From the NCBI GenBank assembly GCA_963632335.1, contig CAVGUA010000109.1:21982-85981 (forward strand): 64,000 bases of DNA, given 5' to 3'. A model generated the notes under the pieces. It ran no database searches. It was not told where the DNA came from and worked only from the letters and a program-made list of their open reading frames with translations. The DNA comes from Parabacteroides goldsteinii. GTDB taxonomy: Bacteria; Bacillota_I; Bacilli_A; RFN20; CAG-826. Both the position numbers and the translations under genes were made by a program. Positions 15,501-58,108 of this stretch are shown in pieces. How positions within the stretch are numbered: the stretch's first letter is position 1; each line of letters opens with the position of its first letter.

Positions 15501-17523
15501 CAAGACCTCCAGCAAAAGAAGCGTTAAATGTTAATCCTACTGTATTTCCCTTAAGCTAACCAGCTGCAGCCTTATCAGGAAGAGACTTGAAGAAATTTAA
15601 TACCTTTTTAAAATAATTCTGCTTTTCAATAGAAGACGCATCAACTGCTGGTCTTGGTGTTAACTTTATTTGATTCATCACTGTTCTAGTGAATGCATTT
15701 GCCGATTCACCTTCTGCTGTTTTAGCATTCATTGCTGCCCTTGCTGTATTTCGCCATTGCAACTTATTAATACGCATTTCTGGCAAAAAGAAATCACCAA
15801 TTGGTGTGTTTAACAAAGCCATTTCTGCGGCAAAACGAGCGAATGTAAAAATACTAGCATCCACGTCGTCAGCACCTGCAAGTTTTAATTCTCCATACAT
15901 TGGGCTTGCCATCAATCCTGCCATGTATACTTTAGATGCTACTTCGCCAATTTTATTATAGCCTTGCATATAAGCAGCAAAATCAGCCATTCCCTGCATA
16001 TTTGCTGCTTTCTCTAAGAACTATGCATCTGCTACACTTTGCATTGTGAATTGTCCTTCCTGTTCAGTGATGCCAGCTTTTATTGCTCTTTTTTTAGCTA
16101 ATTGATTTGCTTGTGTTGTTAATAATTCTTTTCTTTTCCTGATAAGTTCTTGTTGAAATTTTATTTGTTTTCCCTCGTCAAATCCCCAATCAATACTGCT
16201 TTTTAATTTATTGCCTTTAAAAACAGCAGGAAGCCATTCAAACAATATTCGCTATTCTCTTATCTGAGCAAGTAAATCAGCACATGTTGAAAACCAACTT
16301 TCAAAACACCAAGTATGAGTTTTTGCATACTCAGTTCTAAGGGTCTGCCTATTCCATGACTAGGCAAATCCTTCTATACTATTCAATATAGGACTATCGC
16401 TCCCAGTAATCATTTTCCCTGCAATGCTAAATAATCCCCCTAACTATGTCAACAAACTTGCTCCTGTAATAACAGGTCCAATATATGGGATGAACATTGC
16501 GCCAATAAGCACTGCATTTTTTGCAACAGTACCAATCATTGATTTTTGATTAATATCATCACTATCAAATGGGTCAAATTGGTTTATCCAAGAGCCATCT
16601 GTTGTTATCGTATTGAATTTATTTAACACAACCTTACCATCAACAGAACGTCCATTTAATTCTTCATAATAAAACGTTCCATTGTCATTAGTTTTGTATT
16701 GTCCTTTTTTATAAACTATTTTATCTTCATCTTCTGTTGGATTTCCGTTTTCATCGGCATTAAATTCCCATTGAGCTAAAACACGAGTGTCAAATATATG
16801 GGCAAAAAATGATTCGTCGTTTGGCGATTCATTCCAAGTATCTGTAGCAGGGTCGTAAATTTTTTGGGTTTGTGCAATTTCTTCATCAGACAATTGCCTT
16901 GGACCCATTTGCCCAATTGTTGTTAGTGAATTATTTTGCCGATATGGATTGTAAACAACTTGAAGTTTTTTATTGTTTGGATCATCCCAATCAACTTTTT
17001 GTTCATCAGGAGCATATATATTATTGGGGTCATACACAAATTGTTGCTGCATATCATACGAATCTGCAATCTCAACAATCCCATCACGAAGTATTTTTGC
17101 ACTGTCGTAAACTTCAGAAAAAGCTTTTTCGTTAAATTCTCCGTTCTAATCAGTAAAGGCTTTTTTTACAAGATCGTTACTTAAGTAACTATCTTTTGAT
17201 TTCAGTGTTACATTATTAGCAGTATAACCAACATCCAAAAAATCCTGCATTGAGTATGTAGGGTTTGTTATGATATTTAAAAACATATCATGTGTTTTTT
17301 CAGTTGGTTTAGGATTGTCAATTGACGGACTTTGTACATTATTTAATTTTGAAAAAAGTTCATCATAATTGGTATGATCCTCAAAATCATTTTCTAAAGA
17401 ACTATTAGGTACAGACACTCCAGAGGTCTCATTTGAAACCTCTGGAGTGTTTTCCTGTACAGCTGTATTTTCAATTTCTTGTGATACTTCACTCGTATTT
17501 TCAGCCATATTTAACATTTTCAT
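6550..17523 (-). CDS. Giant 3,657-aa protein with embedded RecD/Dda-like SF1 helicase core; probable virion/ejected protein
   Basis: Fourteen fragments (6805 to 17146) share one frame and all end in TAG. All gaps were checked and hold no TAA/TGA. The first real stop is TAA 6550-6552. The ATG at 17521-17523 overlaps the upstream TAA (TAATG). Helicase motifs: GLAGTGKT (~11236-11259), VFDEV (~10920), SGDFNQ (~10840), KAQGLE (~10411). The N-terminal third has hydrophobic Gly/Ala-rich stretches. Confidence 0.8.
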
Positions 17524-22400: not shown

Positions 22401-24923
22401 ATCAATAGTATTATCATTTGTTTTTGTTTTTACGATGTTTGCTGCTTTTTGATTCGCTGCTGCAGTACCATTTTTTGTACCAATATCATTGATTTCTGCA
22501 ATTTCTCCCTCTGATAGCTTAACTGTTTTTGAATTACCATTAGAAGTCACGTTAACCTCCATTTCTACATTTGAATCACCTAATCTTTTATTGGCCTCAC
22601 TTCCTCGTTTTGCTCTTCCTACAGCAGCAGAGCTTATTCCAAGGGTCAAAGTAAGGGCATTTATAAGTTCAAATGCTTCTTCTTTTTTAATCTCGTCTAG
22701 TTTGCCATCACAAAGTTTTTTCCAACAACTTAATGATTTGTCTGCGTTATTAATAGTACCTCTAACAGCTTCTGCTGTTAATAAACCACCAATTAAATGT
22801 CCAACTTTTGGTAGGTACTTAGCAATTTTTCCATATTTTCCTGCTACACCTATAACTGGAATTACACCAATTAAATCTAATCCTACATTAAGTGCTGTAT
22901 TACGAAATGCATCGCCAAAAGTTAATTGATCATCTGAAAAATCAGCACCAGCATTAATAAGATCAGAAGTAACACTTGATATCGCATTAATAACCGTACC
23001 TGGCCCAACAAACATATTACTCAAAAGAGATACAACATCAGCACCGAGTGCAACAAGCCTTGCCGTATCTCTACCGTTTAAACTAGACAACAAATAATCT
23101 GCGTCATCAAACGCTGGTTCTTGTCCTGTTAAAAACTACTTCTACCCAGAAAGATTTGTTTTTGATTTGTCATACTTTTCCTATATATCACTTTTAGGCT
23201 TTTTATTGCTTTTATTTTCCAAAATCTCACTTTCTGTTAAATACACCGTTCCTCCTGCTTGCATTTTATTTATACTAGATGCAACTTCAGCCGCTGCTTT
23301 TTTTCTATCTAATTCTTCAAAATCCCATTGATATTGTTTGTCTAGTTCATACTCTGGTTCGTCATAATATGCTCTATAAAAATCATTAGATTTTGTTGGA
23401 TCGTACTATGTTAACGTGTCCATATATTTCTTCTTTAAAAGGTTTAATTTTTGTTGACTTTTATACGGGTTTTCATTAATTTTTTCTATCAAATCTTTTA
23501 TTGATGTTTTTAATATTTTTAATTTACCTGTGCCTGTATCAACAGAAAGCGCATAACACCTACCTGTTTCTGGATTAATCATTCCTTGGGCAACAAATAT
23601 TTTTTTCCCTTTACCTTCATAAATAGGCTCGATCCCATCAGAATCTGATGTACCTCCGTCTGCTTTTGATAGAAACTACCTGTAAAAATCAATTAAAAAC
23701 CAATTCATTCTAATGCGCAATTTGCTACTAGTTACGAGCGGATCGTTAATATCATATGAATTTACTTGTGCCTTATACCAGCTAAAATCTGATTTTCCAG
23801 CAGGTTTTTGCCCTGTAAAAAAATAGGTTAATTGATTATTGCCGCCTTTACTATACAACAAATAACTTGGATCCATAGTATATACAGCATCCATTATCTA
23901 TGCTCCTTGTGTCAAAAATCTTTTTGACATATCTGTCAAATATGGGTTATCATCTCTAAATGATAATAAGTCAAAATCATAATCGTCTAAAATTGTTAGA
24001 TCATTTTGTGCTGCCTTATCAAAATTCTCTTCTAACATTTTTTCATATTTATATTGATCTGCTGTTTTCTATTCATTTTTTTCTGTGTCTAAAATTTCTT
24101 TTATATTTCCATCTCCATCGATAGCAACTTGATATTTACCATCTTTTACAACTTGTTCTTTTGGAGATTCTTCAGTTTTGTTAACAGGGTCGTATTCTAC
24201 TACTTTTTCTTGCGCAATTAGTGGAAAGAAAAATGGTTTATAATCATCAATAGTTCTTTTTTCTCGTGGTTTTGTTAAGAGCTTATCAATGTCCAAAATG
24301 GTTTCATCCTTAATTTCGTCAGAAATATTAAAATCATCATGAGAAAGTTTATAGCGGAAATCTTTTAAACAACGATCCCATTCTGAATAAACAGGGCTAT
24401 AATCCAATTTTATAGTATATGTATTTTTACCTGTTATCGGGTCAACATCGTTATTTTTAGTTTTTGTTGTTTTTATATAATCTTCAATATGGGTATTACC
24501 CTTTTCGTCGCTAGGTAAATCATTCATGAATTTATTAGCAGCATAATACCTATCAAATTCTATTTTTTTAGCGTCGCCCTTTTCTGATACTATAGGTTCA
24601 TCTTGTTTTTTATTCTTTAACAAAGTATCAACTGCGTCATTTATATAATAAACAGCATATTGTGTTGGACTAACACCATTATCATAAACTGGTAATTCAC
24701 TTTTGCCAATGATACTTCCAGCGTCATTAAATGCGTATGCACCAGAGGCAAGTCCATTCATAATGTCAGAAACCTCAGAAGCCACTTCCGCTTTTTGTTT
24801 GTCCTTTAATGGCATTATGCTTGTATATTCATTGAGGTTGTTCATGACTAACCTTGTCAAATCTGTTACATCGACTTGGTCGTTGCCATAAGTATATGTA
24901 CGCCTCTCCTTTTGTTCAGCCAT
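19467..24923 (-). CDS. 1,818-aa protein with central hydrophobic Gly/Ala/Val-rich region; tape-measure/ejection-like
   Basis: Fragments 20337, 21162, 21948, 22167, 23676 and 24069 share one frame and end in TAG. All gaps were read and hold no TAA/TGA. TAA at 19467-19469, ATG at 24921-24923 with an upstream in-frame TAA. The membrane-like stretch is ...LDLIGVIPVIGVAGKYGKIAKYLPKVGHLIGGLL... Confidence 0.8.
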
Positions 24924-26580: not shown

Positions 26581-29500
26581 TTAGACATCAAAAGTTGTTT
26601 GTATCGCTTTTAATAACACTAATTTATCCCCTGTCCAACGTAGTTTAACATCCATGTAATTATCTAATAATGGTACATTTTTCTTGCCATTATAATATGT
26701 ACCCCAAGAGGACAAGTCAAGTTGTGAAGTGTCCTTATAAAACGCATAAACATCGCTAGGGACAAATCGTTGAAGACTAGTATTATCGCCTCTTTCATTT
26801 GCGTTAATTACCTTTTCACCGATTCCATTTGTTAACAAAGATTCATTAATTTTTTTGTCGCTTAAAAATATTTTACCATCATTATTACCAACAGTAATTT
26901 TTAATGGATTAAAATCCTCTGGTACAGGTGCATTGCCAATACTGATTGGAGGGACAATGTGACTTGAATCTTTATTATACCAAGAATCAATATCCTCATT
27001 TTTCTGATAAATATTCAAGGGCTAAATCTGTATTGCCCAATAACCATTAGTAAACTATGCGTTACCTCTTGTCCTGCCAACTTCTTCAATGTCTCGTATT
27101 AACTAGTGATTGCATAATTTAAACGAATCTTCTTGCTTGTTAAACACAACTTCACCACCTGAATAATCTTGATAATTAATGTTGTTATTATGATTAACAG
27201 CTTTTTTATAAAAATCTTCAATTTCATTAAACGTGTCTTGTTTAGAATAAACCAATGGTAACATTGTAGCTTTGTAATAATTTGACTATGCAACTTTATT
27301 CCTTAAATAATTATTATCATCTGCTTTTTCAAGGAAATCACTAGCCAAAATTGGCTTTACGTTAGTCATAAAATCACTATCCTAAAATGGCGTATGATCG
27401 TATAAAATATCAGATCCATTTTGTTGATAGAAAGCCTTGGTTGCTTCTTGTCTTAAATACATGTTCCTCTTGTCTTTTGAGAAATCATATAAATCGCCAT
27501 TTATCGTCATATGTACTGATTCTGGTTTGACATTATTTGAGAATACCATTAAATTCTAAAAACGTTTTAAAGTGCCATCTTCTGCGCCAACAATAAAGTT
27601 TATTTCAAAAGGATGCTGTTTACCATACCATAAACACGGTTTTATTTTTTCAACATCATCAATTAATCCTGCTTGACCGTGCTTCCAAAAATCAGTTCTT
27701 AACTTTGGATAAACAGCAGAGAATCTTTCTGTATAAGACTTCTAATTCGTTAAATTATAGATATTTGAAACGCCATTTGCTAATGAGACAAATGCTAATA
27801 CAGTTGGCGTGTTTCCAGTGAGAATGCAAGAACCAGAAGCAAATTCAACTTCCTTTAAAGATGTGACCTCTGAAAATGTTAAACATAATTGAGTTTCAAA
27901 ATATCCAGCATTATAACTAACATATTTTTCTGAACGTTTTACGTCATAACTACCAATTGACGTTGCGTTAACATCAACCGCATTCATTTCGCATTTAATA
28001 CATAACTATATTACTGGCTTCTGAGGCTCTTCCTTTAGCATCTTATATCTAAGTTTAACAACATTGTCTTTTTCGATATATAAATAAGATGCTCCATAAT
28101 CAAAAAATCCTTCTTTATGCCCAACGCCATCTGTCTAATCGGATTCTTCAATATTTGAATTTGTAAAGAAATATTTAAAGTTTCCGAAATTATCTCTCTC
28201 TACAGAAAATTTATATTTTACCCAAACGTCTTTGCCTGTTGGAAAATATTTGTTTTGCAGATATAATGGCGTTCTGTAGCAATTTATAGATTTGTCACCT
28301 TCTTTTATTATGCATTCTTCCCATTTGTCAATTAAAACGGATTTAACACAAGTTCCACGGGCGTCCGTGTCAAATTCATCAAACTCATCAAAATAAGAGA
28401 ATGACTATGCTGTAGTGTTTGAAATTTTTGGCTATGTAACTGTATCCGCAATACTCATTCCTAAATTAGCAATCCACTTTGAAGCATTTCTATCATAACT
28501 AAAATAAATATTATGAATATTTTCAGACCAACTAGGAATCCAAGAATAGAATGTGGTAAATTTCCCCAACTATTCATTATAACATAAATTCCACGTCTTT
28601 TCCTCAAAACCTATTGTATTATCATAATAAGTAAACATTACATCGCCTTTATAAGCATTGTAATGCGTCTTAACATTTCTTACGCCAATAATAGTTTCTG
28701 TTTCACGCTCTTCAAGCGTAATGTTTTCATTTAAGAATTTTTGAACTTTAAAGTCAGAAATAAGTTTAAATCCAGATGAAGAAACTTGCCATATCTTTTT
28801 ACCAACTGTATCAACTCCATAAACGGCATTATTTGTTACACAAACGCTTTCTGGCCATTGTGTCCCAAAGTCGGTAGAATACATCTATATTTCAGACAGT
28901 ACACTTGCAACCCCAAGTTTTAACTATAAATCTTTCTCGTTACTACTATTAAATAGAGCTTGCTAGTTTACGGCTATTCTTCCAATACCGTGCTCAAATA
29001 CAGCTATTAACTAATTACCAAATTCTACAAGTCTCATCAAACCACCATATTGTAATGGATAATCCTTATAAGCTGTAGACTAAAATTCTCTAAAACCATT
29101 CCTAAAAGCATCAGTTGATGCTTGTACTGAATAGGCAATTCTAGTCTAAAAATTATTTTTTAAATACGGAACATTTGTATTTGTAAAATATGTTTTTTGT
29201 CCCGTTGAAGAACTGAAGCCTTGATTGTAGCATTGAGATTCTGGTACTTTATGATTGCCAGCAACTGAAATTTCTTGGAATGGATAAAAACCACGAGGAA
29301 TCCCACAAGCTGCATATTCAGTAGAATAAGTTGAATCAATATCACGATAACAAAGATTCATTGAACTTCTAATCGGGAACGTTATCCAGAGACCTAATTT
29401 TACCGCATTTATATCTCCTCTATTAACATCTGCATGATCAGACGTTCCTTTCCAATTGTTTTTCCAAGTGTTTTTATCAACTATAATATCATTATATTGC

Positions 29501-32500
29501 GCATCAGGGTCGTTGAAGTTTCTATTAAGTCTATGAGTGAAATTACTGATATAGCAGTCGCCTCTAAATACAGCTATTACACTATCATTCATTGTTCTTG
29601 TGTTTCCTCTAGAATCAGTATAACTTAATGAACTACACCTATTTGTATAATCATGATATTCAACTCGGTCGGTAACAGCATAATATGGAGATTGATCGTT
29701 GAAGCGTATTTTAAATTTAGTAAAATCACTAGTTGATTCATTGCCTGGAACATAAATATTTACAATTTCAGACGGTAATAAATTCTTATTCCCAGACATC
29801 CCCAAGTAAGCACCAAATGAACCACGAATAATAGCAGAATTTAACGGAGTATAACCTTTTGGTGTGCTATCTCCAAATATTGCTTTTGCTCCAGACGCAA
29901 CACCTTGCATTATACCTGCTGTGGCAGCACCAGTTGCAACTGCAACCCCAAGTGTTAATGCTGTTGCAGCAACTGTTGAACCAACAGCTGTAGCAACGCC
30001 ACCTATTGTTGTTATTGCTCCAATTGCAGAAACTGCACCACCAATGCTTATTGGTGCAGCTGCACCCCAAGTACAAACTGTTACTGCTACTGCAGCTGCA
30101 ACTGTGACAGCAATTGAGACAATTTTGAGCCATTTTTTAAATTTTGACTTTTTCTTTTTGAAAGATACATAATTATCTTTTGTCGGTATTTTATATCTTT
30201 CTTTAGGTACACAAGAAACAAAAGAAATATCTTCTGCTTCTCCGCATCTTGCACGGAAGTTATGTCCATTATTTCGTATAAGTGGAGTGTTGTCTGGGAT
30301 TGAAATTATATGTAATTGCTCTAAAATATCTTTTGTTGGTTTTTTCCAGCAATTATTCCATGAGCAAAACATGAATCTATCATTGTTTTCATCGCAAATC
30401 ATTCTTAATTGGTCTGTAACATTTTTTACAGGGAATTTTCCTCCGCTAAAAATTGAATTATAATATGACTAGTTTAATTCAAATTCGGGACAAAATGCAG
30501 TTAATGTTTCAGTACTTGGCTCATCTAGTAGTTTTTCAGTAAATTCTGTTGAAGTATATGATTTTTTTGTTTTAGTAGGCCATGATATTAATTGTGGATT
30601 AACATCCGCGTCATCTAAATCTTCATCGTCATTTACTGGCAAACTAGCATCAGTCTTCAAAAATGTTTCAGTGCAATAAAGAGCAGGTTGAGATGTATAG
30701 TCATTTGCGTGGTTTATTCTAATAATAGGAGTTCCAGAAACATCATCAAAACCTTCCGTAAAAGCCTGTGCTAATATTGTTGGTATTCTTTTTTGACGCA
30801 CAATAAAATGTCCTTTTATATGATGCTTTTCTCTTAACTCCTTAATAACATCATCTCCAACCTTTATTGCTAAACCATATATCACTGGATTGCCAAATTC
30901 AAATTGTTCAACTGATTGTTCTCTGTATTCTCCACTTGCTTTATTGACATTTGTACTGCTGGATTCATAATCCCATTGTTCCTCTGTAGACTTCCTTTTT
31001 ACAGCAATCTAATCAGAAGGAAAACGAACAACGCCAGCTGAATTTTCTAGTGTCAATTTGTTTATCCAATTAGTATCATAATCAATAGTAAACGTATCGC
31101 GTTCTGTATATGGATTATTATTAGAACATATCGCTATTTTCCCTGTTTTGTCAGCAATTTTAACTGTATCTGGCTGCTTGTCCCATTCTGTTGAATAAAA
31201 AGGAGAAGGTGTGTTTGTGGTGACCATCACGTCTTCAATATTGGTTAACTCTCCAATACCTCTTATATTAAAAACAGGTGTTAAGCTACCATCGTCCATT
31301 ATATAAACAACACCAAACCGATACATCTCTTCTGGCCAATAACCAACATAATTGTATACGCTTGATGCATTATAATACCCTCCTATACCATAAGCATCTT
31401 CACCATCGTATTGTGGATAGCCAACTAAAGCATCACATGAAAGAACTTGATAAAATGGCAAGAACTCAAGACTGAGTTTTTGTAATTCGTCATAATCAAT
31501 TTTAGGCTTTGTGGCATTGCCAAGGAATAACATGTTTTGACACTGAGCTTGTGTTTTTACCCTACTAAAAATTTGATGTTCTGAAAGTATCTCGTCTTTT
31601 GCGGCTACTTCAGTTGTTTCAGTTCCTGTGATTATAAATGAGCAGCTCTATGACAATATTCTATATTTGTCTAATATTTTATGATATGTGACATTTCCTT
31701 CAGCACCAGAAGCATTGCTGCTTCTTGAATAATATATAGAAAGATAATCATATGCTGTATCAATATTTGATACAGTTAAATTAATACCTTTGTATGAATT
31801 TTCGTCAAGCTGTCCTCCTCTAATTGTTTGTGGACTATTTATATTTCCAATATAAACAGGTATACATCCAGTTTCGGCGATAACATCAGTTTCATTTCCG
31901 TCAGCGTCAGCCAACTTGAAATAAAACGTATACATTCCAACTTTTAATTGACCACCATATGTTAATCCATTGAATGTTATAACAGGTATGTGTTTATATC
32001 GTTTATTTAAAGACGTGTCAAGATCAAACTCATCACTATCATACAAATTTGTATCTGTATTTCCCTTTCTATCAACACGTTCATAAGTATTTAATTCTAA
32101 AGGAGTAAATCTGGTATTTATTAATCTTGGAATATTTTTATTATCATTTAAGATAAGGTTTGTTGAACCATCATAAGACTATTGACATTCTATTTCAACA
32201 GGATGCCTTAAATCAAAATCTAAAACATCTGTTTCTCCATTGCCTCCTGTTATTAAATCTTCTATAATTCCATCCTCTTCAAAAACAAGGGGATAAATGT
32301 CACTTGTTACATGTTTTAGGCCTACAATATTTCCATCACTATCATATTTCCTATGAGCATTGTCAAGGCATTTGTAGTATTTACCATTACGAGTAAAATG
32401 ATAAGCTGACTCTTCCGAAACTTCAGTCACGATTTTGTTTGCAGAAGCATATAAGTCTAAAATACCAACACCATATTTATATTCATCAGATACACTTGTG

Positions 32501-33309
32501 TTTGTCAAAACAGTGCTATCAGAAAAATCATCAGTGGCATCACCTGCAGGAGTGCTGTATTTATAATTGCTTACAATAAATTTTGTATCAACGTTTTTAT
32601 ATTCTGTTTTTAAAACAGAAACTAGTTTTATGTCGAGACTGCCAACGTTACTTATCAAACCTGTTGCATTGATAAATACTATATTATCGGTATAATCAAT
32701 TGTTTTACCTGAACTGTCTTTTGTTGGCAGTTCATCTTTAGAACCAGATAACGACATTGCAAGTTGTCTACAGAGTTCCTACACTGAACCGCAATTAGAA
32801 AAACATGAAGAAACAGGAATGTTTTTTAAATCTATTTCTGTCTCACCATCACTCCAAGTTGTGTTATTGACGTAATATTTTACATTTGTTGTTTCTGAAT
32901 TACTATCAGCTTCTACACTACTGACTTTAGATGTTGTGACAAGAGGTCCAATAGTTTTCTATTGAGAATCAAAACTAATGCTTGTTATACCTGAAAAACC
33001 AAGATTCTCTAAAAGGGTTTTAAATGAACGAGAAAGCTAAACAGAATAAGTTACTTTACTGATTGTTGTTACTTGTTTGGTTATTGAACTAGAAGCCGCT
33101 TCAATTAAACCTGCCTCTAGCACATTGTTAATAGCACCGTTATTCCAAATGACAACATTAGTCAATATATTCCTATCTGCAGACAAATAGTTGCCTTCGG
33201 AATCCTTTAAATACTAATTACCTTTTCTAAAATTATATAATGGATTGTACTCCCAGGCCATTGACCCTTTATTTTTTATACATTGTGTTGCGTATTTTAT
33301 TCGCGTCAT
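26581..33309 (-). CDS. 2,242-aa tail-associated protein with an internal 87-aa Ala/Gly/Val/Thr hydrophobic segment
   Basis: Fragments 26581 (TAA), 27742, 28570, 29146, 30469, 31009, 31648 and 32179 share one frame; all but the first end in TAG. Every gap was checked. The ATG at 33307-33309 is 2 nt after the upstream TAA. Confidence 0.8.
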
Positions 33310-33311
33310 AT

Positions 33312-36300
33312 TTATTTTATTATGTAAAAATTAGAGTCTGCTGGGCCGATGCCAGCTTCATATCTATGATCCATATCAGTGGCAAATGAAAATAAACATT
33401 GATAACCTCTTTCTGAAGAAGTTGAAGGATGATCATGCAACCAAGTGCCTGTATACCAATAATTTCTACAATAAATTTCGTTTTTGCCAGCAACAATAGA
33501 ATAGTCTTTGCCTATAAAACCAACATATTTTTCTGTAGTAAAATTACTTGTATTAGAGCTAATCTCTTTCCACGGCAATACTTCATACGTTGGATCATTA
33601 GTTGAAATTTTAGTTGTAGCCCCTTTCATATAAACGGGTACGTATTCACTATTATCATCAACCCATTTAAAATCTGCTTTTGATAATAATGTGTCTACAA
33701 ATGTATTGCTTCTAATTCCTGTATAGATACAATTATTGTTTAATGTAGGTTCACCAACGTTAAATGATAATATATCAGAATTGTTAGAAGCCACGAAATA
33801 ACCCGATCTTGATATAACTGTATTTTTATCAACCATTACGTCGCTGTAATTTTCGCTAATATCCAATTGAGAATATGGCTCTTCAATTGTAACAACACTT
33901 TCTTTATTACAAGCAAAAGATATTTTATAAGCATCAAAAGTATTGGCACTTATGCCTTTGTAGTAGAAACAATTATCAATATCATAATTAACTGTTATAG
34001 TATTTATCACTGTATGACTTTTTGTAATATCTTCTATTGCAATGTTTTGAATTTTTGAAGTTTGCTGTATTGAATTAACATTGCTTGTTAACGTATGATT
34101 ATTTTTTAATTCTGTTAAAAATGTAGTTATCCTGCTATCTTCTGAAGAACCTATATATTTACTATATGGCGGCATTTCACGGTCTTCTACATCTATTTTG
34201 TAGGTGCCTGACCCATATCCGTATAAAGTGCCATAGTCATAGCCATTAAAGGCTGATTTTTCCTAATATAGACTTGGAAAAATGATATTTGTAGGCGAAT
34301 ATCCATTTTGAGTTTGTACAGCCAAAATACTAACACAATATGAACCTAATAGCTTAAAATCGTCAGTTTTAATATCACAAACTTTCATGTGCCCTAAAAA
34401 AGCAAGCATTGGAAGTTGTGGCTCTGTTTTTAATAAATTGCTAGTAGCCAAATAACTATTTGGAATTAAATACGAGAAAGTATCTTTTGTTCTACTCTCG
34501 CTTGCTTTTTTATATGCACTTACTTGCAAATTGTCTTTTAATAGCTCATATTCACCATATAAATTTTCCAAACAAAAAACAGTTTTTGTCCTACCATCTT
34601 GTTTCCTTCCTCCAGATGAATCAAAAAAACAAGCAAACATTTTATCTGTTGTTGTTTGTTTTGGCAAAACATGATAACTTCTATTACTTGATATTAAACT
34701 TATATATTCGTTTCCTGTATCGTTTGTTATATAATTAATTTCACCATTATTTGTAATACTGTATTTATAAGAAACTGTTTTTTTGAATTTTAAATCACTT
34801 ACTTTATTCCATGTAATTAAATTGTCAGGGTCATCCGTTTTTATCCCACCACTAGGTATGCTAAATTTCGCCTAGCTATTTTTAATAGAGAATAAATTCA
34901 ATATACTTTCGTCAAATGTAAATGTAAATTCGGCATTGTATGTTTTTGTTGCAGTATATTCAGCCGTACCTTTAGCAATATCATCAATGTCAGGAATATC
35001 CATTGATTCACACTTTGTTTGTAAAACAGAATTAACCTTTGGAGTAAAAACTAAAGTTTTTGAATCGGTAGTTATATCACCCTCTTTAGTGTCTCCGTCA
35101 CGAATGAATGTGTCTGTTGAATTATATAACGAATTTCCATCTGGTACAGTAATTATTACAAACACATCACTATTACTTGTTGTGACTGTTGAATTATTTG
35201 ACATTGTTTTGTCAACTGAGATCCACGCATAATAAATACTATCCAAACTTAATGTAGTGCCATAATTTTCAGTTTCTTTTGGCTGAAGATATATTCCATC
35301 AACAAACGATGAATTATAATTATTACGTGAAGTTAATGTTTTCGTTATATGATATTTTGCATAATCACCAGTTAAATATTTTGATATATTTTCACAATTG
35401 CTTGGGTTTTTTTCTGCTGCGGTGTATTTACTACAGATTTTATTCCAACCATAGTAATCAACACAATGTAATGTTACGTTGCTAATAAATTGCTTGTTTT
35501 TTAGATATGTTTGCAATTGGTATTTTAACAAAAGCTATCCATAATCAGTTGCGTCTTCAATATAATATTGAATTGACTAAAACAAAATTTTGCCTGAATT
35601 TAGCCACGCCAAATTAAAACTTCCTTTTGTTGTTAACTAACTCAACCAGCCATTATTAAAGTTTTCATGTGTTGTATCTGAGATTCTATAGTATGGTGTG
35701 ATTTCATAATTTAAATAAGCTTTTGCATCAGACAAACTTGCAATAGTTTCTTCTGTTTTTATGCCATCTGGCCAACCTATTTTAAAATTGAAAACCTTTT
35801 CATAGCTATCATACGCTTCCTTGTCATCATTATCAATCGTAACATCCTTATCAGAAATTAATTCAATTGATTCATAGTTATTGCCTTGTTCTGCTGGCGA
35901 AATCTTTATCTTATAAGTATTTATTGCAATATTTGCATATTTCTTTATGAAAGAATAACGAATAAAATAAGCCGATGCGGTATTAACAGGATTAATTAGC
36001 CAATAATATTCAGCGTTTGCCTGTTTGCCAGTGACCTACCCTTCAACTTGGCTCATTAATGCTTCTTTGCCAATTTCTCGTTCTGTGCCAATAGAACAGT
36101 CTTCATACAAATATATGTCTTGATATGGCTTACTACTTGCGTCCTTTATTTCATATACTAAACAATCATCTGTAAAAATTATTGGTTGGTTATATAAATT
36201 TAATGTATAATATGTGAGCAAGTTGATTCCCATTGAACACTCAGAAGGAAGGTCAACTCCTTGTATATTAACAAAGGTAGGCTCCATAACTCCTTCTATA

Positions 36301-37289
36301 AAACTTGACAAAATATCAGGAGTGTTTAGCGTAAAAATCAAATATAAATCACCAACAATTTTATTTTTATAAATATTCCAAATAATATCCTTAGTATCAG
36401 TTACATCCTTCATATTAATAAAGGACTGATAATAAATATCACTATGTGTTTTATTGTTTGAATCCACATAATCACATTGACACCAGCTATAGAAGTCATA
36501 GGTGCAAGTATTTACATTAGGTGGCGTGTTTGTCCAATTCTTTTTATAAGTGATTTTATTATCGCCTGAAAGTTCAGTTATATTATACCAATATTGAGAA
36601 GCTAAGGCATTTAATGCAATGTTTGTCAAGTTGCCAGATGCATCAATAACCGCCACATCCATTTTTAAACTTCCTCTTTGAAGCCAAATCATTAAATTGT
36701 CAATAACATATTCTGTATTGTCATCAGGAATATGTATTGAAAATTTATCACCAGGTCGAATTGTATCAGCAAGCATTATTTTCTAAGTTAAAGAATCTAT
36801 TGTGGCTTCTCTTATATAACTATATTCTTTAACTACTGAACTATCATCATTTCCTACGTATTTTGAATAAACTATATTATCAGCACCAAATTCAATATTA
36901 GTGCTTGCTGATTCATATTTTTGCTCGCTTTTGTATGACTAAGTAAAATTTTCCAATTTTTTTACCGAGGAGCCATTTTCGTCACTGCTCACATTTCTTT
37001 CTGGACTAGGGAAACACCCAATCTAACTCTATTTTGTTAATGGATTATGGCTTGCAACATAAACAATTCCTCCAAACTCCTTCATTCCTACAGGCACAAA
37101 TCCAGCTGGCAAATAAGCAGATTCCACACGTCCATTGCCCATGTCGTTTTGCAAAATAAACTCATTGCCATCCATTGTGATTGTTGTAGCATTTAAGGCT
37201 CCTGCAAGTTCCGTTTTTGACATTGCAATTGGATTTTTGTCAAGCACCATGCCCTCTTGCCATTGATTTATCGACGTTTGTCTTGCCAT
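33312..37289 (-). CDS. 1,325-aa tail/receptor-binding-type protein
   Basis: Fragments 33312 (TAA), 34263, 34872, 36036 and 37029 share one frame. Gaps were checked. ATG at 37287-37289 with an in-frame TAA upstream. Confidence 0.8.
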
Positions 37290-38236
37290 ATCGTTTTGTT
37301 AATTTTCATCAAGTCTTTCATTGTAAAATTGGTACCATCTCGTATATATATTGCCTTCTTAAAAGGGATTGTACCATCACTATTCAAATCTGTTTTTAAA
37401 ATTTTATATAATTTATTTGTTGCCGCTGCAAGGTCGCATAATATTTCATACTTCCATAATTTTTGTCTTACTATTTCATCTGAAACTATTAAGTTTTTTG
37501 GCATCTGAAAATAATAATAATCATCAGCAGGCTTTTTTCTGCGATTATATAAAACCCCAAGTTTCGTTATTAATTTGCTTTGATAATAAGCCTTATGCTT
37601 TAACGAATCTGTAGTTAATTTTCCAACCAAAAATAAAAAATCTCTAACTTTAAAGCATATATCTCCACCATATTGTATGTGACGATATACTGAATCAAAA
37701 CCATATGTCATGATATACAGCAAATCTTTTATGTTTAAAGTTGGAAACATTTCCTATAAAACACTTTTATAATCAACTACTTTTTTTTCATTTTTCTAAA
37801 AAAAAATTGTTTGATTTTCAGTATGTTCGATTAATTTTCTTTTTTCATCGCCACTTATATAAACTCGCAAAAATGGATCTTTAATATTTCTGTTTTTTCT
37901 ATGTATTACTAAAGCTAATGCAGAAAAATTAGTCTTTAAGAAATCAACGTCCTAAAATACGCCCAATCTTCGTAGCCTTTTAAAATCTTCTCCTGCATAA
38001 CGTTTTACATACATTGAAAAATTACTCCTACCAGGGAAGATAAATTCAATATCATTGTCAATTATATCATTTATGATATATTTGAGTGTCTTCATAAACA
38101 CATAATGAACAAATCGTATTTTAGAATAATCATGAAAATACTACCATGTTTCCTTTTGTGTAAAATGTATTTTTTTTAAATCAAAATTCTCAAATATATC
38201 AAATAAATCAAAGCAATATCCTAAAGCAAATCTCAT
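37268..38236 (-). CDS. 322-aa basic protein, unknown function; first gene of the giant-gene transcription unit
   Basis: Track fragment 37268..37750 (TAA stop) extends upstream through four in-frame TAG to the ATG at 38234-38236, which is preceded by an in-frame TGA. It overlaps the next gene by 22 nt. Confidence 0.65.
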
Positions 38237-55504: not shown

Positions 55505-55982
55505 TTAGGATTCACGGATAATGAATGACCTATAAGGGTTGAATACTGCAATACCAGCGTAGCCCCAGTTGATAAGCTTAGAACCTGCAACAGGGCTAGA
55601 AACAACACCGCTGCTGAGACCGTTTTCGCCACCAACGCCAAGATACTTATTCGTAATAAACTCGCCACCCTTTAAGGTGAAGCAAGCAATTGCTGGCTGG
55701 TTCTTGGATTCGTCAGCCGTAAGGTCAATCGCTACCATGTAACCCTTTTCAGAACCGTATTCACGAGTGAGCGCACGGTCAACAGTGAATGAAACCTGAT
55801 TGCCTGCATACTCATATGCGTTATACGTTGCGCCAACCTTAATGTCGCCGCCAGCAGCCTTAGAGTAAAGATAGCAGCCGTCGGTCTTGAAGTTAGCAAG
55901 ATAATCGCCAAGAGTGGTCTGAATATCATTCCAGGCTTTCTGATTGCAAATGAAATGATCAATTTTGTTAATCTTAAATTCT
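55505..55982 (-). CDS. Putative major capsid protein, exon 2 (5' boundary approximate)
   Basis: The frame is open from an in-frame TGA at 55982-55984 down to TAA at 55505-55507. There is no start codon for about 80 codons, so it cannot be translated alone. GC-rich and TAG-free. Confidence 0.6.
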
Positions 55983-57125
55983 CATTTAAGTTCAGACTAT
56001 ATCTTCATCTTATTTTAACGGTTTAATATTTTTTTTGTCTCCTATAAAAAATCTCCATCTAAATCCTCCGCAGCGTTTTTGTAATCCTTTTATTGCTGCT
56101 GTAATATTTGACGGTGTTTTTATTTTATTTCCCCTTGCCGCTTCAGCAATACTTGTGTAAGATTCAATAAAAAAGCCTTCATCATTATATTTAGCCACGG
56201 CTATTCCAGTATGTTCAAAATCAAAATGTCTTTTAAAAGACCAGTAGTAGCCATAAGCCTATTTTGATTTTTTGTTACATACATTACTAATTGCGTCCCT
56301 TGCGGCTGATTGATTTTTAAATTCTTTAGAAGCCTCAGTTATAGATTTCCAAATTTTCAAAAGATTGCCAAGCAAATCAAATTGATAAACAACCTTTTCT
56401 TTTTTTATTACTGGTTCAATATTATCAGTTTTGCCTAAATAATATTTCCACTAAAAATCACCGCAATATTTACTTCTACAGCAAACCGCATTGTAAATGC
56501 CTGTCAACCCCAACTCTTGTTGTGCTTTTTTTATTGATGGCCAAGTTCTTATAAATACTCCATCCAAAGTATATTGAGCAATTTCAATTTCATTAACCCA
56601 ATTCATTGTTATTTTGCCGCCAATAGTTAAGTTATAATTATTGCTTGATTTAACAAATTCTGGCGTTACTAATTCGGCTTCGTATTTATATGCCTCAAGC
56701 ATACCTTCTGTTGTATCAGGAAATATTTTTAAGGTTTGTCGCTTAAAATTAGAATATCCATATTTTAATACCGCAGCAGGAAAACCTCGTGTGTTTTTTT
56801 TTGAATCTTTATGAGTAACTCCACAACCTATATATCCATCAAATATATCAGGATTTGTGTAATGTACTCCAATATAAATTTTACCGTTAATTATATTTGT
56901 TGTTTTATAAACAATATAATTCATAAGATGTTAAACATTTAGTCGTTGAACGTCCCTCCCTTTCGGAGGTCTTCGCTGCTGATTGCCCAATCTTTATGAT
57001 TTTCTAGCATTCACATTCATTATTACTAATCATTGTTGTAGCTCATAAAGCTCTAAGGGGTTTCCAGCAATTTGAATAATTTATTCATACAGCATTCTCA
57101 TGCTGCCCAAGCTATCATATCATTT
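55983..57125 (-). mobile_element. Group-I-like self-splicing intron carrying a homing endonuclease (boundaries +/- ~10 nt)
   Basis: It interrupts the capsid reading frame. About 200 nt of non-coding sequence 5' of the endonuclease gene contains the hairpins CAGCAU-GAGA-AUGCUG and CCUCC-GAAAG-GGAGG. The sequence GCUUG can pair with the exon end CAAGU (candidate P1). The model UU|...G|A restores the frame: 965+478 nt = 481 codons. Confidence 0.55.
56010..56924 (-). CDS. GIY-YIG homing endonuclease with three NUMOD/IENR1-like DNA-binding repeats, 304 aa
   Basis: Fragments 56451 (TAG) and 56010 (TAA) share one frame; the gap was checked. In-frame TAG at 56451 and 56259. Motifs: YIVYKTTNIINGKIYIGVH, FKRQ, YEAELV, NYNLTIGG. 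The repeats are WPSIKKAQQELG, WKSITEASKEF and YTSIAEAARG. Confidence 0.8.
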
Positions 57126-58090
57126 AACTTGTTGCCACGATCATTTGCGGCTTTCTCATTAAGAGTTGCAATTACTGTATTGAACAACTCGATGGTTGGC
57201 TTGCCATTGTATGCGTACTTCGATGCGAAACGCTCTACCTGAGGCAAGAAGCCGTCACCAATATTGATTGGACGACCAGTGTCAGGATCAACAATAGTTG
57301 AACGACCAGTCTTAGGATTAATGTTGGTCTTGTTGAAGAGAAGACCCTGATTACGAGAATCCATGAAGTTGTCAAGAAGGGTCTTCTGTACGTTGTCCAT
57401 CTTATAAATGGTCTCCTTGCCGTCCTGTCCACCGCCAATCTTAATGAATACATCTTCATGTGCCTTATAAAGAGCGGAATAAGAAATGTCATTACGGAAG
57501 GTGGTGATGTAGTTCCTGTGATGCTCAACAGAAGACTGAGCCTTTACATAACCCTCTTCGTGAAGTTCAGGATGAGCATTAGACTAGAAACGAGTAGTCA
57601 TACCCATCTTGCAAGCGTCAAGGTCAAGCTCAACGTCATAAGAATTGTCAACAAGACGAACCTAAACTTCCCAGAAGTTATCAGCCTTACGAATTGGTCG
57701 ACTTACAACCATGCACTGCTGGCGAGATTCATCAATCTTGAAAATATCGTACTTCTCGTAGTAACGCTCCTTGAAGTACATCGTTATTTCGCTTCCATTT
57801 GCACCAGTGTCGGTTACATCAGCCGCAAACTCTACACGCTTAATAAAGTTTGTCTCAATATCCCATTCAAACATCATGCTATCAATAGACTAGAAGCGAT
57901 TTGCCTTCTTAGTGTCCATGTGATATACATTCATAAGGGATTCAGTAAGGAAAGAAGCACTCAAGTTAGGAAACATACGACTCACAACACCAAGCTTGTG
58001 AGGGCGAGTGCCAAGAAACTTGTAAAAGTCCTCATAGGTATAAGTTTCACTCTATGTGGGCCTTACAGTAACGTAATTTGCTACAATCAT
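57126..58090 (-). CDS. Putative major capsid protein, exon 1 (3' boundary approximate)
   Basis: ATG at 58088-58090, four in-frame TAG. The frame runs on into the intron to TGA at 57098. GC-rich with biased codons. It is preceded by an acidic scaffold-like gene. Confidence 0.6.
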
Positions 58091-58108
58091 AATTTATATA
58101 TAAATTAA

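What the first reader, a model, noticed from the sequence alone, without database searches (positions are those of the whole stretch)
29872..30132. 87-residue Ala/Gly/Val/Thr hydrophobic block buried in a 2,242-aa tail protein
Seen: WLKIVSIAVTVAAAVAVTVCTWGAAAPISIGGAVSAIGAITTIGGVATAVGSTVAATALTLGVAVATGAATAGIMQGVASGAKAIFG. It is preceded by a Lys cluster (KKKKSKFKK) and flanked by ordinary beta-rich, Asn/Tyr-rich sequence. Locally the DNA is much more GC-rich, which produces long spurious ORFs in other frames on both strands.
Inference: this is three or four membrane-spanning or fusion-peptide-like helices inside a tail-tip protein. That would fit a channel or pore-forming role in genome or cargo delivery across the Bacteroidota envelope.
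Basis: partly seen in the sequence, partly recalled or inferred. Interest (0 to 1): 0.6.

Follow-up and report, generated by a model that had tools for sequence, protein, structure and literature searches.

The report
Hydrophobic cassette in crAss-like tail muzzle
A gut crAss-like phage carries, inside the large protein that caps the tip of its tail, a conserved and apparently exchangeable ~105-residue greasy cassette that most relatives lack and that probably lets the tail tip itself engage the host membrane, something not previously described for this phage group.

Summary
With TAG read as sense, window 26581-33309(-) encodes a 2,242-aa protein. Residues 1060-1146 hold a 79-residue run with no charged residue; the longest such run in 2,000 shuffles was 55.

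The protein is a crassvirus muzzle protein (Pfam PF25731, E=4.7e-36), the hexameric gatekeeper at the tail tip.

The block is a conserved cassette, not generic low complexity:
- a basic lead-in (SFKKKKS..W);
- one strong TM-type helix ending V.T.G.AA;
- an apolar Gly/Ala/Thr stretch of variable length;
- a '(I/T)P.GY' exit.

It lies in the distal 'crass domain' region, not in the propeller gate loop.

It is accessory. crAss001 gp44, 120 gp44 relatives and the nearest standard-code relatives lack it. It is present in 13 of 116 database homologues and in 35 of 80 IMG/VR loci (11 of 28 de-replicated clusters), all 35 TAG-recoded. It occupies at least three different insertion sites.

It is under strong purifying selection (dN/dS 0.02-0.06) and shows signs of exchange by recombination.

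The most likely role is a membrane-inserting hairpin at the tail tip, analogous to the phi29 gp9 loop. That role is inferred, not shown. '3-4 helices' is unproven.

The local GC rise and the other-frame ORFs are composition artefacts.

The parts
26581..33309 (-). Muzzle protein gene (2,242 aa, 26 in-frame TAG codons read as sense; homologue of crAss001 gp44)
   Evidence: ORF under TAG as sense. Pfam PF25731 crAss_MUZ, E=4.7e-36. PHROG 28748 and 15100, 'virion structural protein'. hhalign to the gp44 family, probability 97%.
29851..30165 (-). Whole hydrophobic cassette, aa 1049-1153 (SFKKKKSKFKKW ... TPKGY); an insertion relative to cassette-free relatives
   Evidence: Clean ~100-aa insertion between conserved flanks, compared with L001 and L002. 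Inserted between profile states 682/683. Both cassette flanks are conserved in 23 diverse homologues.
30124..30165 (-). Basic lead-in, aa 1049-1062 (SFKKKKSKFKKWLK)
   Evidence: K1051-K1053 conserved in 61-70% of cassettes. Forms the start of the AF2 helix at query 102-134.
30067..30123 (-). TM1, aa 1063-1081 (IVSIAVTVAAAVAVTVCTW); the one strong TM-type helix, with the conserved end motif V.T.G.AA
   Evidence: KD 19-residue window up to 2.28; Hessa-scale sum 0.06. AF2 helix with pLDDT around 80 and 66-77. T1080 conserved in 78% and G1082 in 87% of cassettes.
29887..30066 (-). Apolar Gly/Ala/Thr/Val-rich region, aa 1082-1141; marginally hydrophobic, structure undetermined
   Evidence: KD 1.2-1.6; Hessa sums +2.4 to +2.7. 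AF2 pLDDT below 50. Length varies from about 30 to 65 aa among homologues. No significant periodicity.
29851..29886 (-). Exit motif, aa 1142-1153 (KAIFGDSTPKGY), containing the conserved '(I/T)P.GY' re-entry into the fold
   Evidence: P1150, G1152 and Y1153 each conserved in 74% of cassettes, whichever insertion site is used.
30199..30552 (-). Conserved ~120-130-aa beta-rich subdomain (aa ~920-1037, profile states 551-682). In the window the cassette follows it; in most other lineages the cassette precedes it.
   Evidence: hmmalign site mapping. AF2 pLDDT 63-90 over query 1-80.
29864..30172 (+). Spurious 102-aa ORF on the opposite strand, caused by the GC-rich (Ala/Gly/Val/Thr codon) composition of the block
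29867..30133 (-). Spurious 88-aa ORF in another frame of the same strand

Best explanation
The block is an accessory, evolutionarily mobile hydrophobic cassette inserted into the distal 'crass domain' region of the hexameric tail muzzle protein of a divergent, TAG-recoded crAss-like phage.

Shown:
- It has a fixed architecture: basic lead-in, one strong TM-type helix, a 30-65-residue apolar Gly/Ala/Thr stretch, a basic/polar exit, then the '(I/T)P.GY' re-entry.
- It is conserved under purifying selection.
- It occurs at different loops of the same protein in different lineages.
- Many relatives lack it.

Inferred:
- In the virion the six copies are shielded, either bundled together or packed against the crass domain.
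- On contact with the host envelope, the muzzle undergoes the conformational change already proposed for crAss001. The cassettes are then released and insert into the outer membrane as helical hairpins.
- Because the cassette is an insertion in a loop, both of its ends must stay on the virion side. The basic flanks would sit on the anionic LPS or phospholipid head groups.
- This would anchor the tail tip irreversibly and/or nucleate the opening through which the TM-bearing cargo proteins and then the DNA pass.
- The closest precedent is the hydrophobic L-loops of the phi29 tail-knob protein gp9, which exit and form a hydrophobic helix barrel for membrane penetration.
For: Identity and location:
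- Pfam crAss_MUZ.
- hhalign anchors: window 848 = gp44 457 (start of the crass domain), 1310-1318 = gp44 969-977, 1419-1451 = gp44 1060-1092. These place aa 1060-1146 inside the crass/IG2 insertion region.

Membrane-type character:
- 79-aa charge-free run, KD up to 2.28, Hessa sum about 0 for TM1.
- AF2 predicts a 33-residue helix (pLDDT ~80) for the lead-in plus TM1, and no soluble fold for the rest.
- Basic residues flank both ends.

Functional constraint:
- dN/dS is 0.02-0.06 in the cassette, equal to the rest of the gene. For example, 6 non-synonymous vs 54 synonymous differences in 87 codons.
- The architecture is conserved in 23 sequences whose muzzles are only 42-60% identical.

Recurrence:
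- 13 of 116 database homologues.
- 35 of 80 IMG/VR loci, or 11 of 28 clusters at 90% identity.
- Flavobacterium phage FpV4 gp29.
- Insertion sites at profile states 550/551, 573/574, 682/683 and ~798/812.

Precedent: phi29 gp9 (PMC6542822).
Against: - No experiment or structure shows membrane insertion.
- Most muzzle proteins, including the structurally solved crAss001 gp44, work without the cassette.
- The phage also has cargo-like giant proteins with their own TM-like segments. By analogy with crAss001 gp45 these could do the channel job alone.
- Only TM1 is clearly TM-grade. The rest is marginal, with no GxxxG enrichment or helical periodicity.
- Whether the cassette faces the channel lumen, the outside or the distal tip could not be determined. 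The residue-level alignment to gp44 has low confidence in this region, and Foldseek found no match for the fragment model.
- No dedicated TM predictor could be run.
Confidence: 0.5

Rival explanations
1. Assembly-time membrane tether. TM1, preceded by its basic cluster, inserts into the host cytoplasmic membrane while the muzzle protein is made, with the positive flanks staying in the cytoplasm. Tail or muzzle assembly would then take place at the membrane. The cassette has no role at infection.
For: TM1 is hydrophobic enough for autonomous insertion (Hessa sum ~0). Basic residues on both flanks fit the positive-inside rule for a hairpin inserted from the cytoplasm.
Against: Podovirus tails are thought to assemble in the cytoplasm on DNA-filled heads (general knowledge). 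crAss001 and many close relatives assemble the same muzzle without any such tether. A virion tethered through 6 hairpins would have to be extracted from the membrane before release. The cassette sits in the distal, host-facing domain.
Confidence: 0.15
2. Purely structural hydrophobic plug or oligomerisation core. The six cassettes bundle on or near the tail axis to seal the distal channel or stabilise the larger (about 1,900-2,200-aa) muzzles, without ever entering a membrane.
For: Cassette-bearing muzzles are systematically longer (1,868-2,184 aa) than cassette-free ones (about 1,590-1,640 aa). Apolar Ala/Gly-rich helices pack tightly. The crAss001 paper notes a restricted channel diameter below the gate.
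Against: A buried structural core would be expected at a fixed position, but the cassette occupies at least three different loops. Its middle part varies from 30 to 65 aa. AF2 finds no packed fold for it even with an MSA. The basic flanks and one TM-grade helix are typical of membrane hairpins.
Confidence: 0.17
3. phi29-style lumenal plug that becomes a pore. The cassettes fill the muzzle channel in the virion, are expelled ahead of the cargo, and themselves form the outer-membrane pore. This is a stronger version of the first reader's reading.
For: The phi29 gp9 precedent. Six copies with 2-4 apolar segments each would be enough for a barrel. The Gly/Ala/Thr-rich composition resembles pore-lining segments (general knowledge).
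Against: The cassette is not in the propeller blade-4 gate loop that closes the crAss001 channel. A lumenal location is undetermined. The cargo-like proteins carry their own TM segments. Cassette-free relatives deliver DNA without it.
Confidence: 0.15
4. Functionless low-complexity insertion or expansion (compositional junk, or a mis-assembly or recoding artefact).
For: Low-complexity composition. Absent from close relatives.
Against: dN/dS is 0.02-0.06 with many synonymous changes. Motifs are conserved on both flanks and at the end of TM1 across distant lineages. Codon usage is native. The cassette is found independently in dozens of contigs from different datasets.
Confidence: 0.03

Closest known systems
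Crassvirus muzzle protein (crAss001 gp44; PDB 7QOK/7QOL/8CKB; Pfam PF25731)
   Same: Homologous protein (Pfam E=4.7e-36; hhalign probability 97%). Same genomic position: after the tail ring and hub genes and before the giant cargo/RNA-polymerase genes. Same inferred domain order: ring-joining domain, propeller, IG domains and crass domain.
   Different: gp44 (1,371 aa) and all 120 of its close homologues have no hydrophobic segment. The window protein is 2,242 aa and carries the ~105-aa cassette inside the crass/IG2 insertion region. The second gp44 Pfam domain (PF25729) was not detected at E<=1.
phi29 tail-knob protein gp9 hydrophobic pore-forming L-loop
   Same: A long hydrophobic segment embedded in a hexameric distal tail-tip protein of a short-tailed phage. 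In phi29 it exits during infection and forms a hydrophobic helix barrel for membrane penetration (PMC6542822). This is the proposed mode of action here.
   Different: No sequence or fold relationship was found. The phi29 host is Gram-positive, so the target there is the cytoplasmic membrane. In phi29 the loop belongs to every virion of the group, whereas here the cassette is accessory, variable in position and exchanged between lineages. A lumenal location is not established here.
TM-bearing ejected cargo proteins of podoviruses (crAss001 gp45; T7 gp14)
   Same: Virion proteins with a TM helix that are thought to form or seed the trans-envelope channel (PMC10172136). The window also has cargo-like proteins with such segments.
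   Different: Those are internal proteins ejected through the tail. The cassette is part of the fixed tail-tip gatekeeper itself.
Glycine-zipper membrane segments (Pfam Gly-zipper_Omp, Gly-zipper_OmpA, Gly-zipper_YMGG)
   Same: Gly/Ala-rich apolar composition.
   Different: No Pfam glycine-zipper hit at E<=1. GxxxG and small-xxx-small spacing is not enriched over composition.

Membership tests
Crassvirus muzzle protein (PF25731, crAss_MUZ) | Significant match to the family profile above the curated cutoff | tested here: met
   124.8 bits against a cutoff of 27; E=4.7e-36; aa 1234-1601 = profile 925-1217.
Crassvirus muzzle protein (PF25731, crAss_MUZ) | Full-length homology to crAss001 gp44 (propeller, IG and crass domain order) | tested here: met
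   hhalign probability 97.3%, 1,152 aligned columns, window 351-2116 = gp44 83-1351. High-confidence anchors at the crass-domain start and in the propeller. Residue-level alignment inside the crass domain has low confidence.
Crassvirus muzzle protein (PF25731, crAss_MUZ) | Gene position between tail ring/hub genes and giant cargo/vRNAP genes in a crAss-like structural module | tested here: met
   The window has a Crass_capsid MCP and a portal upstream, with giant proteins of 1,818, 3,657 and more than 2,165 aa downstream. The order is the same in crAss001 and cr115_1.
Crassvirus muzzle protein (PF25731, crAss_MUZ) | Hexameric assembly at the tail tip with the 'crass fold' | not testable with these tools
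   The Foldseek search with the 440-aa fragment model gave no PDB hit. No multimer prediction or coordinates were available.
phi29 gp9-type pore-forming tail-knob loop | Sequence or fold homology to gp9 | tested here: not met
   No PDB sequence hit for the whole protein at E<=0.01. No Foldseek hit. The resemblance is functional only.
phi29 gp9-type pore-forming tail-knob loop | Loop stored in the tube lumen and expelled on ejection; membrane pore activity | not testable with these tools
   Needs cryo-EM before and after ejection, plus liposome or bilayer assays.
Transmembrane helical segment(s) | At least 19 consecutive apolar residues with hydropathy in the TM range, flanked by charged residues | tested here: met
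   TM1, aa 1063-1081: KD 1.95-2.28, Hessa-scale sum 0.06, preceded by KKKKSKFKK. AF2 helix with pLDDT ~80.
   The later segments are marginal (KD 1.2-1.6; Hessa +2.4 to +2.7). AF2 gives one further low-confidence helix (pLDDT ~40) or coil. No consistent periodicity. TMHMM and DeepTMHMM were not available.
Glycine zipper (Pfam Gly-zipper families; GxxxG-type packing) | Profile match, or enrichment of (G/A/S)xxx(G/A/S) spacing | tested here: not met
   No glycine-zipper family at E<=1. At gap 4, 19 observed vs 19.0 expected; for G-G at gap 4, 2 observed vs 1.6 expected.

The most novel reading that the evidence does not exclude
A subset of crAss-like phages has equipped the tail-tip gatekeeper itself with a modular, recombining membrane-insertion cassette, a fusion-peptide-like device. 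In these phages the muzzle, and not only the ejected cargo proteins, would breach or anchor in the Bacteroidota outer membrane. The cassette would be swapped between loops and between lineages as a host-entry adaptation.
Probability: 0.3. Interest if true: 0.7.

Novelty: new variant of a known kind. Interest (0 to 1): 0.55.

Why it matters
How crAss-like phages, the most abundant viruses of the human gut, cross the Bacteroidota envelope is unknown. The only structural model (crAss001) assigns channel formation entirely to ejected cargo proteins and treats the muzzle as a passive gate and sensor.

A conserved, selected membrane-type cassette built into the muzzle of a large, mostly TAG-recoded group of crAss-like phages suggests a second strategy and gives a concrete, testable handle. 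Peptides or domains can be tested on liposomes. Cassette-plus and cassette-minus relatives form natural comparison pairs.

There is also a methodological point. Standard gene calling fragments recoded genes and hid most carriers: 11% of homologues in protein databases carry the cassette, against 44% of the IMG/VR loci once these were translated with the right code.

Tried and rejected
1. First word-indexed homologue search with the block included. The low-complexity block swamped the candidate list and only 2 hits came back. I replaced it with the exhaustive phmmer search.
I used the TAG-free 440-aa stretch instead.
3. phmmer of the whole protein against the PDB: no hit. gp44 is too distant for single-sequence search.
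4. Foldseek of the 440-aa AF2 fragment model against the PDB: nothing, not even gp44.
5. Residue-level mapping of the insertion sites onto gp44 by hmmalign and hhalign. The two alternative alignments disagree and confidence is 0-4 inside the crass domain. Only the domain-level placement is retained. My motif-based guess that 'RGDCYI..FTHR' equals gp44 'GDTYYQRYDC' remains unverified.
6. Hypothesis that the block sits in the blade-4 gate loop: rejected.
7. Lead that cr115_1 gp47, annotated 'glycine zipper domain', is a stand-alone equivalent: its sequence is not hydrophobic.
8. Hypothesis that cassette-free relatives compensate with a TM segment in a neighbouring gene: none found within the fetched flanks.
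9. Glycine-zipper membership: no Pfam hit and no spacing enrichment.
10. Fourier analysis of helical vs beta periodicity: inconsistent across homologues.
11. Cassette-profile search for non-muzzle carriers: it found only one more muzzle fragment. Sensitivity is limited by the word index.
12. Foreign origin of the GC-rich stretch: rejected by codon usage.
Full report
**1. The observation**

The quoted 87-residue peptide is encoded at window 29872-30132 on the minus strand. Under table 11 the surrounding frame is open for only 440 codons. If TAG is read as sense it is open for 2,249 codons (2,242 aa from the first ATG; 26 in-frame TAGs; gene 26581-33309, minus strand).

Recoding is a property of the whole window. 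ORFs of at least 150 aa cover 22.8 kb under table 11 and 63.3 kb with TAG as sense, while TGA as sense gives no gain. No tRNA gene lies in the window.

The block is far from chance. It has a 79-residue run without D/E/K/R, against a mean of 26 and a maximum of 55 in 2,000 shuffles. Ala makes up 28% of the block and 4% of the rest of the protein.

The local GC rise (0.46-0.49 vs ~0.33) is purely compositional. GC at codon positions 1+2 is 0.64 vs 0.37, and GC3 is lower than in the rest of the gene (0.13 vs 0.22). The GC expected from the peptide plus the gene's own synonymous usage is 0.49, against 0.47 observed. The stretch is therefore native, not recently imported. The two other-frame ORFs (29864-30172 on the plus strand; 29867-30133 on the minus strand) translate to low-complexity nonsense.

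**2. What the protein is**

Pfam identifies it as a Crassvirus muzzle protein (PF25731, 124.8 bits against a cutoff of 27). PHROGs says only 'virion structural protein'.

The window is a crAss-like structural module. It has a portal (PHROG 6547) and a Crass_capsid major capsid protein, then tail genes, the muzzle, and giant cargo-like proteins of 1,818, 3,657 and more than 2,165 aa. This order matches crAss001 (gp43 ring, gp44 muzzle, gp45/46 cargo, gp47-50 RNA polymerase) and cr115_1.

The phage is divergent. Its portal is 21-24% identical to classified Crassvirales and 51-58% identical to unannotated human-gut scaffolds.

In crAss001 the muzzle is a ~1 MDa hexamer at the tail tip. It comprises a ring-joining domain, a seven-bladed propeller resembling the T7 nozzle, IG1, IG2 and a large 'crass domain' inserted into IG2 (residues 453-904 and 940-1012). 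It is gated by a loop in blade 4. The crass domain is proposed to contact the cell surface and trigger opening. No TM segment is reported in gp44, and channel formation is ascribed to the cargo proteins gp45 and gp46 (PMC10172136).

**3. What the block is**

It is an insertion. The two closest GenBank relatives (~38% identity; MT835470 = L001, standard code; MT835492 = L002, TAG-recoded) align cleanly on both sides ('R.R.GEAE...' and '.IRG.Y.PYLG..IINIYIPG') and simply lack ~100 residues.

An exhaustive phmmer search with the TAG-free 440-aa stretch found 317 homologues. I built a 1,535-state HMM from 98 block-free homologues and aligned everything to it. This showed that similar blocks occur in a minority and at different places:
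- Between states 550/551: P0002, P0008, P0009, P0013, P0014, P0016, P0023, P0029, and probably P0006.
- Between states 682/683: the window, P0004, P0005, and a degenerate Arg-containing version in P0003.
- Between states 573/574: P0085.
- Around states 798/812: Flavobacterium phage FpV4 gp29.

The median insert length at every site is 0-1 residue for the three precisely defined sites and 11 residues across the ~798-812 span.

These blocks share one architecture and are therefore homologous:
- a lead-in '(SEGFL)SRY.F.FKKKSS.(W/F)' (window: 'NYVSFKKKKSKFKKW');
- a ~20-residue helix ending 'A.V(F/V)T.G.A' (window: 'VAVTVCTWGAAA'; G1082 conserved in 87%, T1080 in 78%);
- a variable 30-65-residue Gly/Ala/Thr/Val stretch;
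- 'G(I/V)Q', a basic stretch, and 'GR.T..P.GY...E.D.SRKL' (window: 'GIMQG...TPKGY').

Sites 550/551 and 682/683 flank a conserved ~130-residue beta-rich subdomain. The same cassette therefore sits before that subdomain in most lineages and after it in the window's lineage.

**4. Frequency, and a sampling bias**

Among database homologues that cover both main sites, 13 of 116 carry a cassette. Full-length cassette-free members occur inside both cassette-bearing clades. None of the 120 close gp44 homologues has one.

Predicted-protein databases fragment recoded genes. When I fetched 80 IMG/VR loci and translated them with the appropriate code, 35 carried a cassette. All 35 are TAG-recoded, with muzzles of 1,868-2,184 aa. 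None of the 41 standard-code loci (~1,590-1,640 aa) carries one. After de-replication at 90% identity, 11 of 28 clusters carry it, all at site 550/551.

The link to recoding is not absolute. FpV4 and L008 use the standard code. The window's site-682/683 placement is the rare variant. P0004's contig (L007) is also TAG-recoded and syntenic with the window.

A profile search with the cassette alone found only one more muzzle fragment.

**5. Selection and mobility**

Between close relatives the cassette accumulates synonymous but not non-synonymous changes. For L060/L079 there are 54 synonymous and 6 non-synonymous differences in 87 codons. dN/dS is 0.02-0.06, indistinguishable from the rest of the gene.

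In other pairs the cassette is much more diverged than the rest of the gene at both kinds of site. For L060/L057 the cassette has dN 0.49 and dS 2.3, against dN 0.09 and dS 0.69 for the rest. L042/L088 behaves similarly. This is what cassette replacement by recombination would produce. Together with the multiple insertion sites, it marks the cassette as a mobile module.

**6. Physical character**

TM1 (aa 1063-1081) is TM-grade: KD up to 2.28 and a summed Hessa-scale free energy of 0.06. AF2 with a 42-sequence MSA predicts one continuous helix for the lead-in plus TM1 (query 102-134, pLDDT ~80), confident beta-rich flanks (pLDDT 80-90), and no fold for the remaining ~60 residues (pLDDT below 50).

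With the cassette MSA alone, AF2 gives two helices: residues 17-44 (pLDDT 66-77) and 72-106 (pLDDT ~40).

The later segments are only marginally hydrophobic (KD 1.2-1.6; Hessa sums +2.4 to +2.7). There is no enrichment of small-xxx-small spacing, no consistent helical or beta periodicity, and no Pfam glycine-zipper hit. 'Three or four TM helices' is therefore unproven.

One topological constraint follows from the anatomy (inference). The cassette is an insertion in a loop of a folded domain, so its two ends must stay on the same side. That implies a hairpin (an even number of crossings) or an interfacial or re-entrant element. The shortest cassettes (47-53 apolar residues) fit a two-helix hairpin.

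**7. Where it sits**

Profile-profile alignment to the gp44 family (probability 97%) gives solid anchors: window 848 = gp44 457 (start of the crass domain), 1310-1318 = gp44 969-977, and 1419-1451 = gp44 1060-1092 (propeller). The cassette is therefore inside the crass/IG2 insertion region at the distal tip, not in the blade-4 gate loop.

Residue-level placement, and whether the cassette faces the lumen or the outside, could not be resolved. The crAss001 authors noted that muzzle length variation comes from insertions in exactly these regions.

**8. Mechanism**

The best-supported reading (confidence ~0.5) is a membrane-active hairpin cassette on the tail tip. It would be shielded in the virion, released when the muzzle rearranges on host contact, and inserted into the outer membrane with its basic flanks on the anionic head groups. 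It would then anchor the tip and/or seed the opening used by the TM-bearing cargo proteins, which this phage also has (g19467-24929 aa 621-696; g6550-17535 aa 330-369).

phi29 gp9 is the documented precedent for a hydrophobic loop in a hexameric tail-tip protein that exits and forms a hydrophobic helix barrel (PMC6542822).

The rivals are an assembly-time inner-membrane tether, a purely structural hydrophobic plug or core, a full phi29-style lumenal plug that becomes a pore, and junk. The last is effectively refuted.

Shown: identity, architecture, conservation, selection, patchy distribution and domain-level location. Inferred: shielding, release, membrane insertion and the benefit to the phage.

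**9. Novelty**

The protein family is known and the idea of membrane-active tail-tip segments is known. I found no description of a hydrophobic cassette in crassvirus muzzle proteins in the searchable literature. Only two papers contain 'muzzle protein', 'transmembrane' and 'crass' together. In the crAss001 structure paper the TM predictions concern gp45, not the muzzle; the other paper, a review, was not opened. The zeta-crAss paper mentions the muzzle only in the context of recoding.

I class the finding as a new variant of a known kind and rate it moderately interesting (0.55). It is a concrete, testable entry-mechanism feature in an abundant but poorly understood phage group, with an unusual modular evolutionary behaviour. 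Its function remains inferred, and it is dispensable in many relatives.

Noticed in passing
window 55505-58093 (-): intron at 56922-57131; endonuclease ORF at 56010-56930: The major capsid protein gene (Crass_capsid, profile 68-315 of 496, ORF 57098-58093) is interrupted by a group I intron (Rfam RF00028, 52.5 bits). The intron carries a GIY-YIG/NUMOD1/I-HmuI-like homing endonuclease ORF. The likely second capsid exon is the ORF at 55505-55981, which has no Pfam hit on its own.
   Followed up: partly
window 1-64000: The whole window uses TAG as a sense codon (for example 60 in-frame TAGs in the 3,657-aa ORF), yet ARAGORN finds no tRNA, and so no suppressor tRNA, in these 64 kb. Any suppressor must be encoded elsewhere in the genome.
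   Followed up: no
window 22836-23063 (-) and 16417-16536 (-): The giant cargo-like proteins downstream of the muzzle carry their own TM-like segments: g19467-24929 aa 621-696 (two segments) and g6550-17535 aa 330-369. This is analogous to the predicted TM helix of the crAss001 cargo protein gp45.
   Followed up: partly
window 33312-37298 (-): A 1,325-aa protein immediately upstream of the muzzle has no Pfam or PHROG hit. A large ORF occupies the same syntenic position in L001 (1,147 aa), L002 (1,138), L005 (1,099), L007 (1,228) and L008 (1,307); whether these are homologues was not tested. It is an uncharacterised large tail-module protein of this lineage, with no counterpart at that position in crAss001.
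   Followed up: no
L008 7170-7172: In the standard-code contig that encodes P0002, the muzzle ORF is split by a single in-frame TAA. The gene callers report it as two genes of 1,080 and 916 aa, both hitting crAss_MUZ. It could be a sequencing error, a pseudogene or read-through.
   Followed up: no
L057 vs L060, and L042 vs L088 (IMG/VR loci), cassette region: The cassette is several-fold more diverged than the rest of the muzzle gene at both synonymous and non-synonymous sites, which suggests recombinational replacement of the cassette between lineages.
   Followed up: partly
L003 3860-4321 (cr115_1 gp47): The GenBank note 'glycine zipper domain / peptidoglycan-associated protein-like' is not borne out by the sequence, which is a charged, non-hydrophobic 153-aa protein.
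   Followed up: yes
P0003 (closest homologue, 59% identity in the conserved region), profile site 682/683: It carries a degenerate cassette at the window's site ('KKYIKKWAKATLALAVRSSVQIATGRIRTGTLSALASTATGIAATYYGVAQ'). Arg residues interrupt the apolar run, so it looks like a decaying or amphipathic derivative of the cassette.
   Followed up: no
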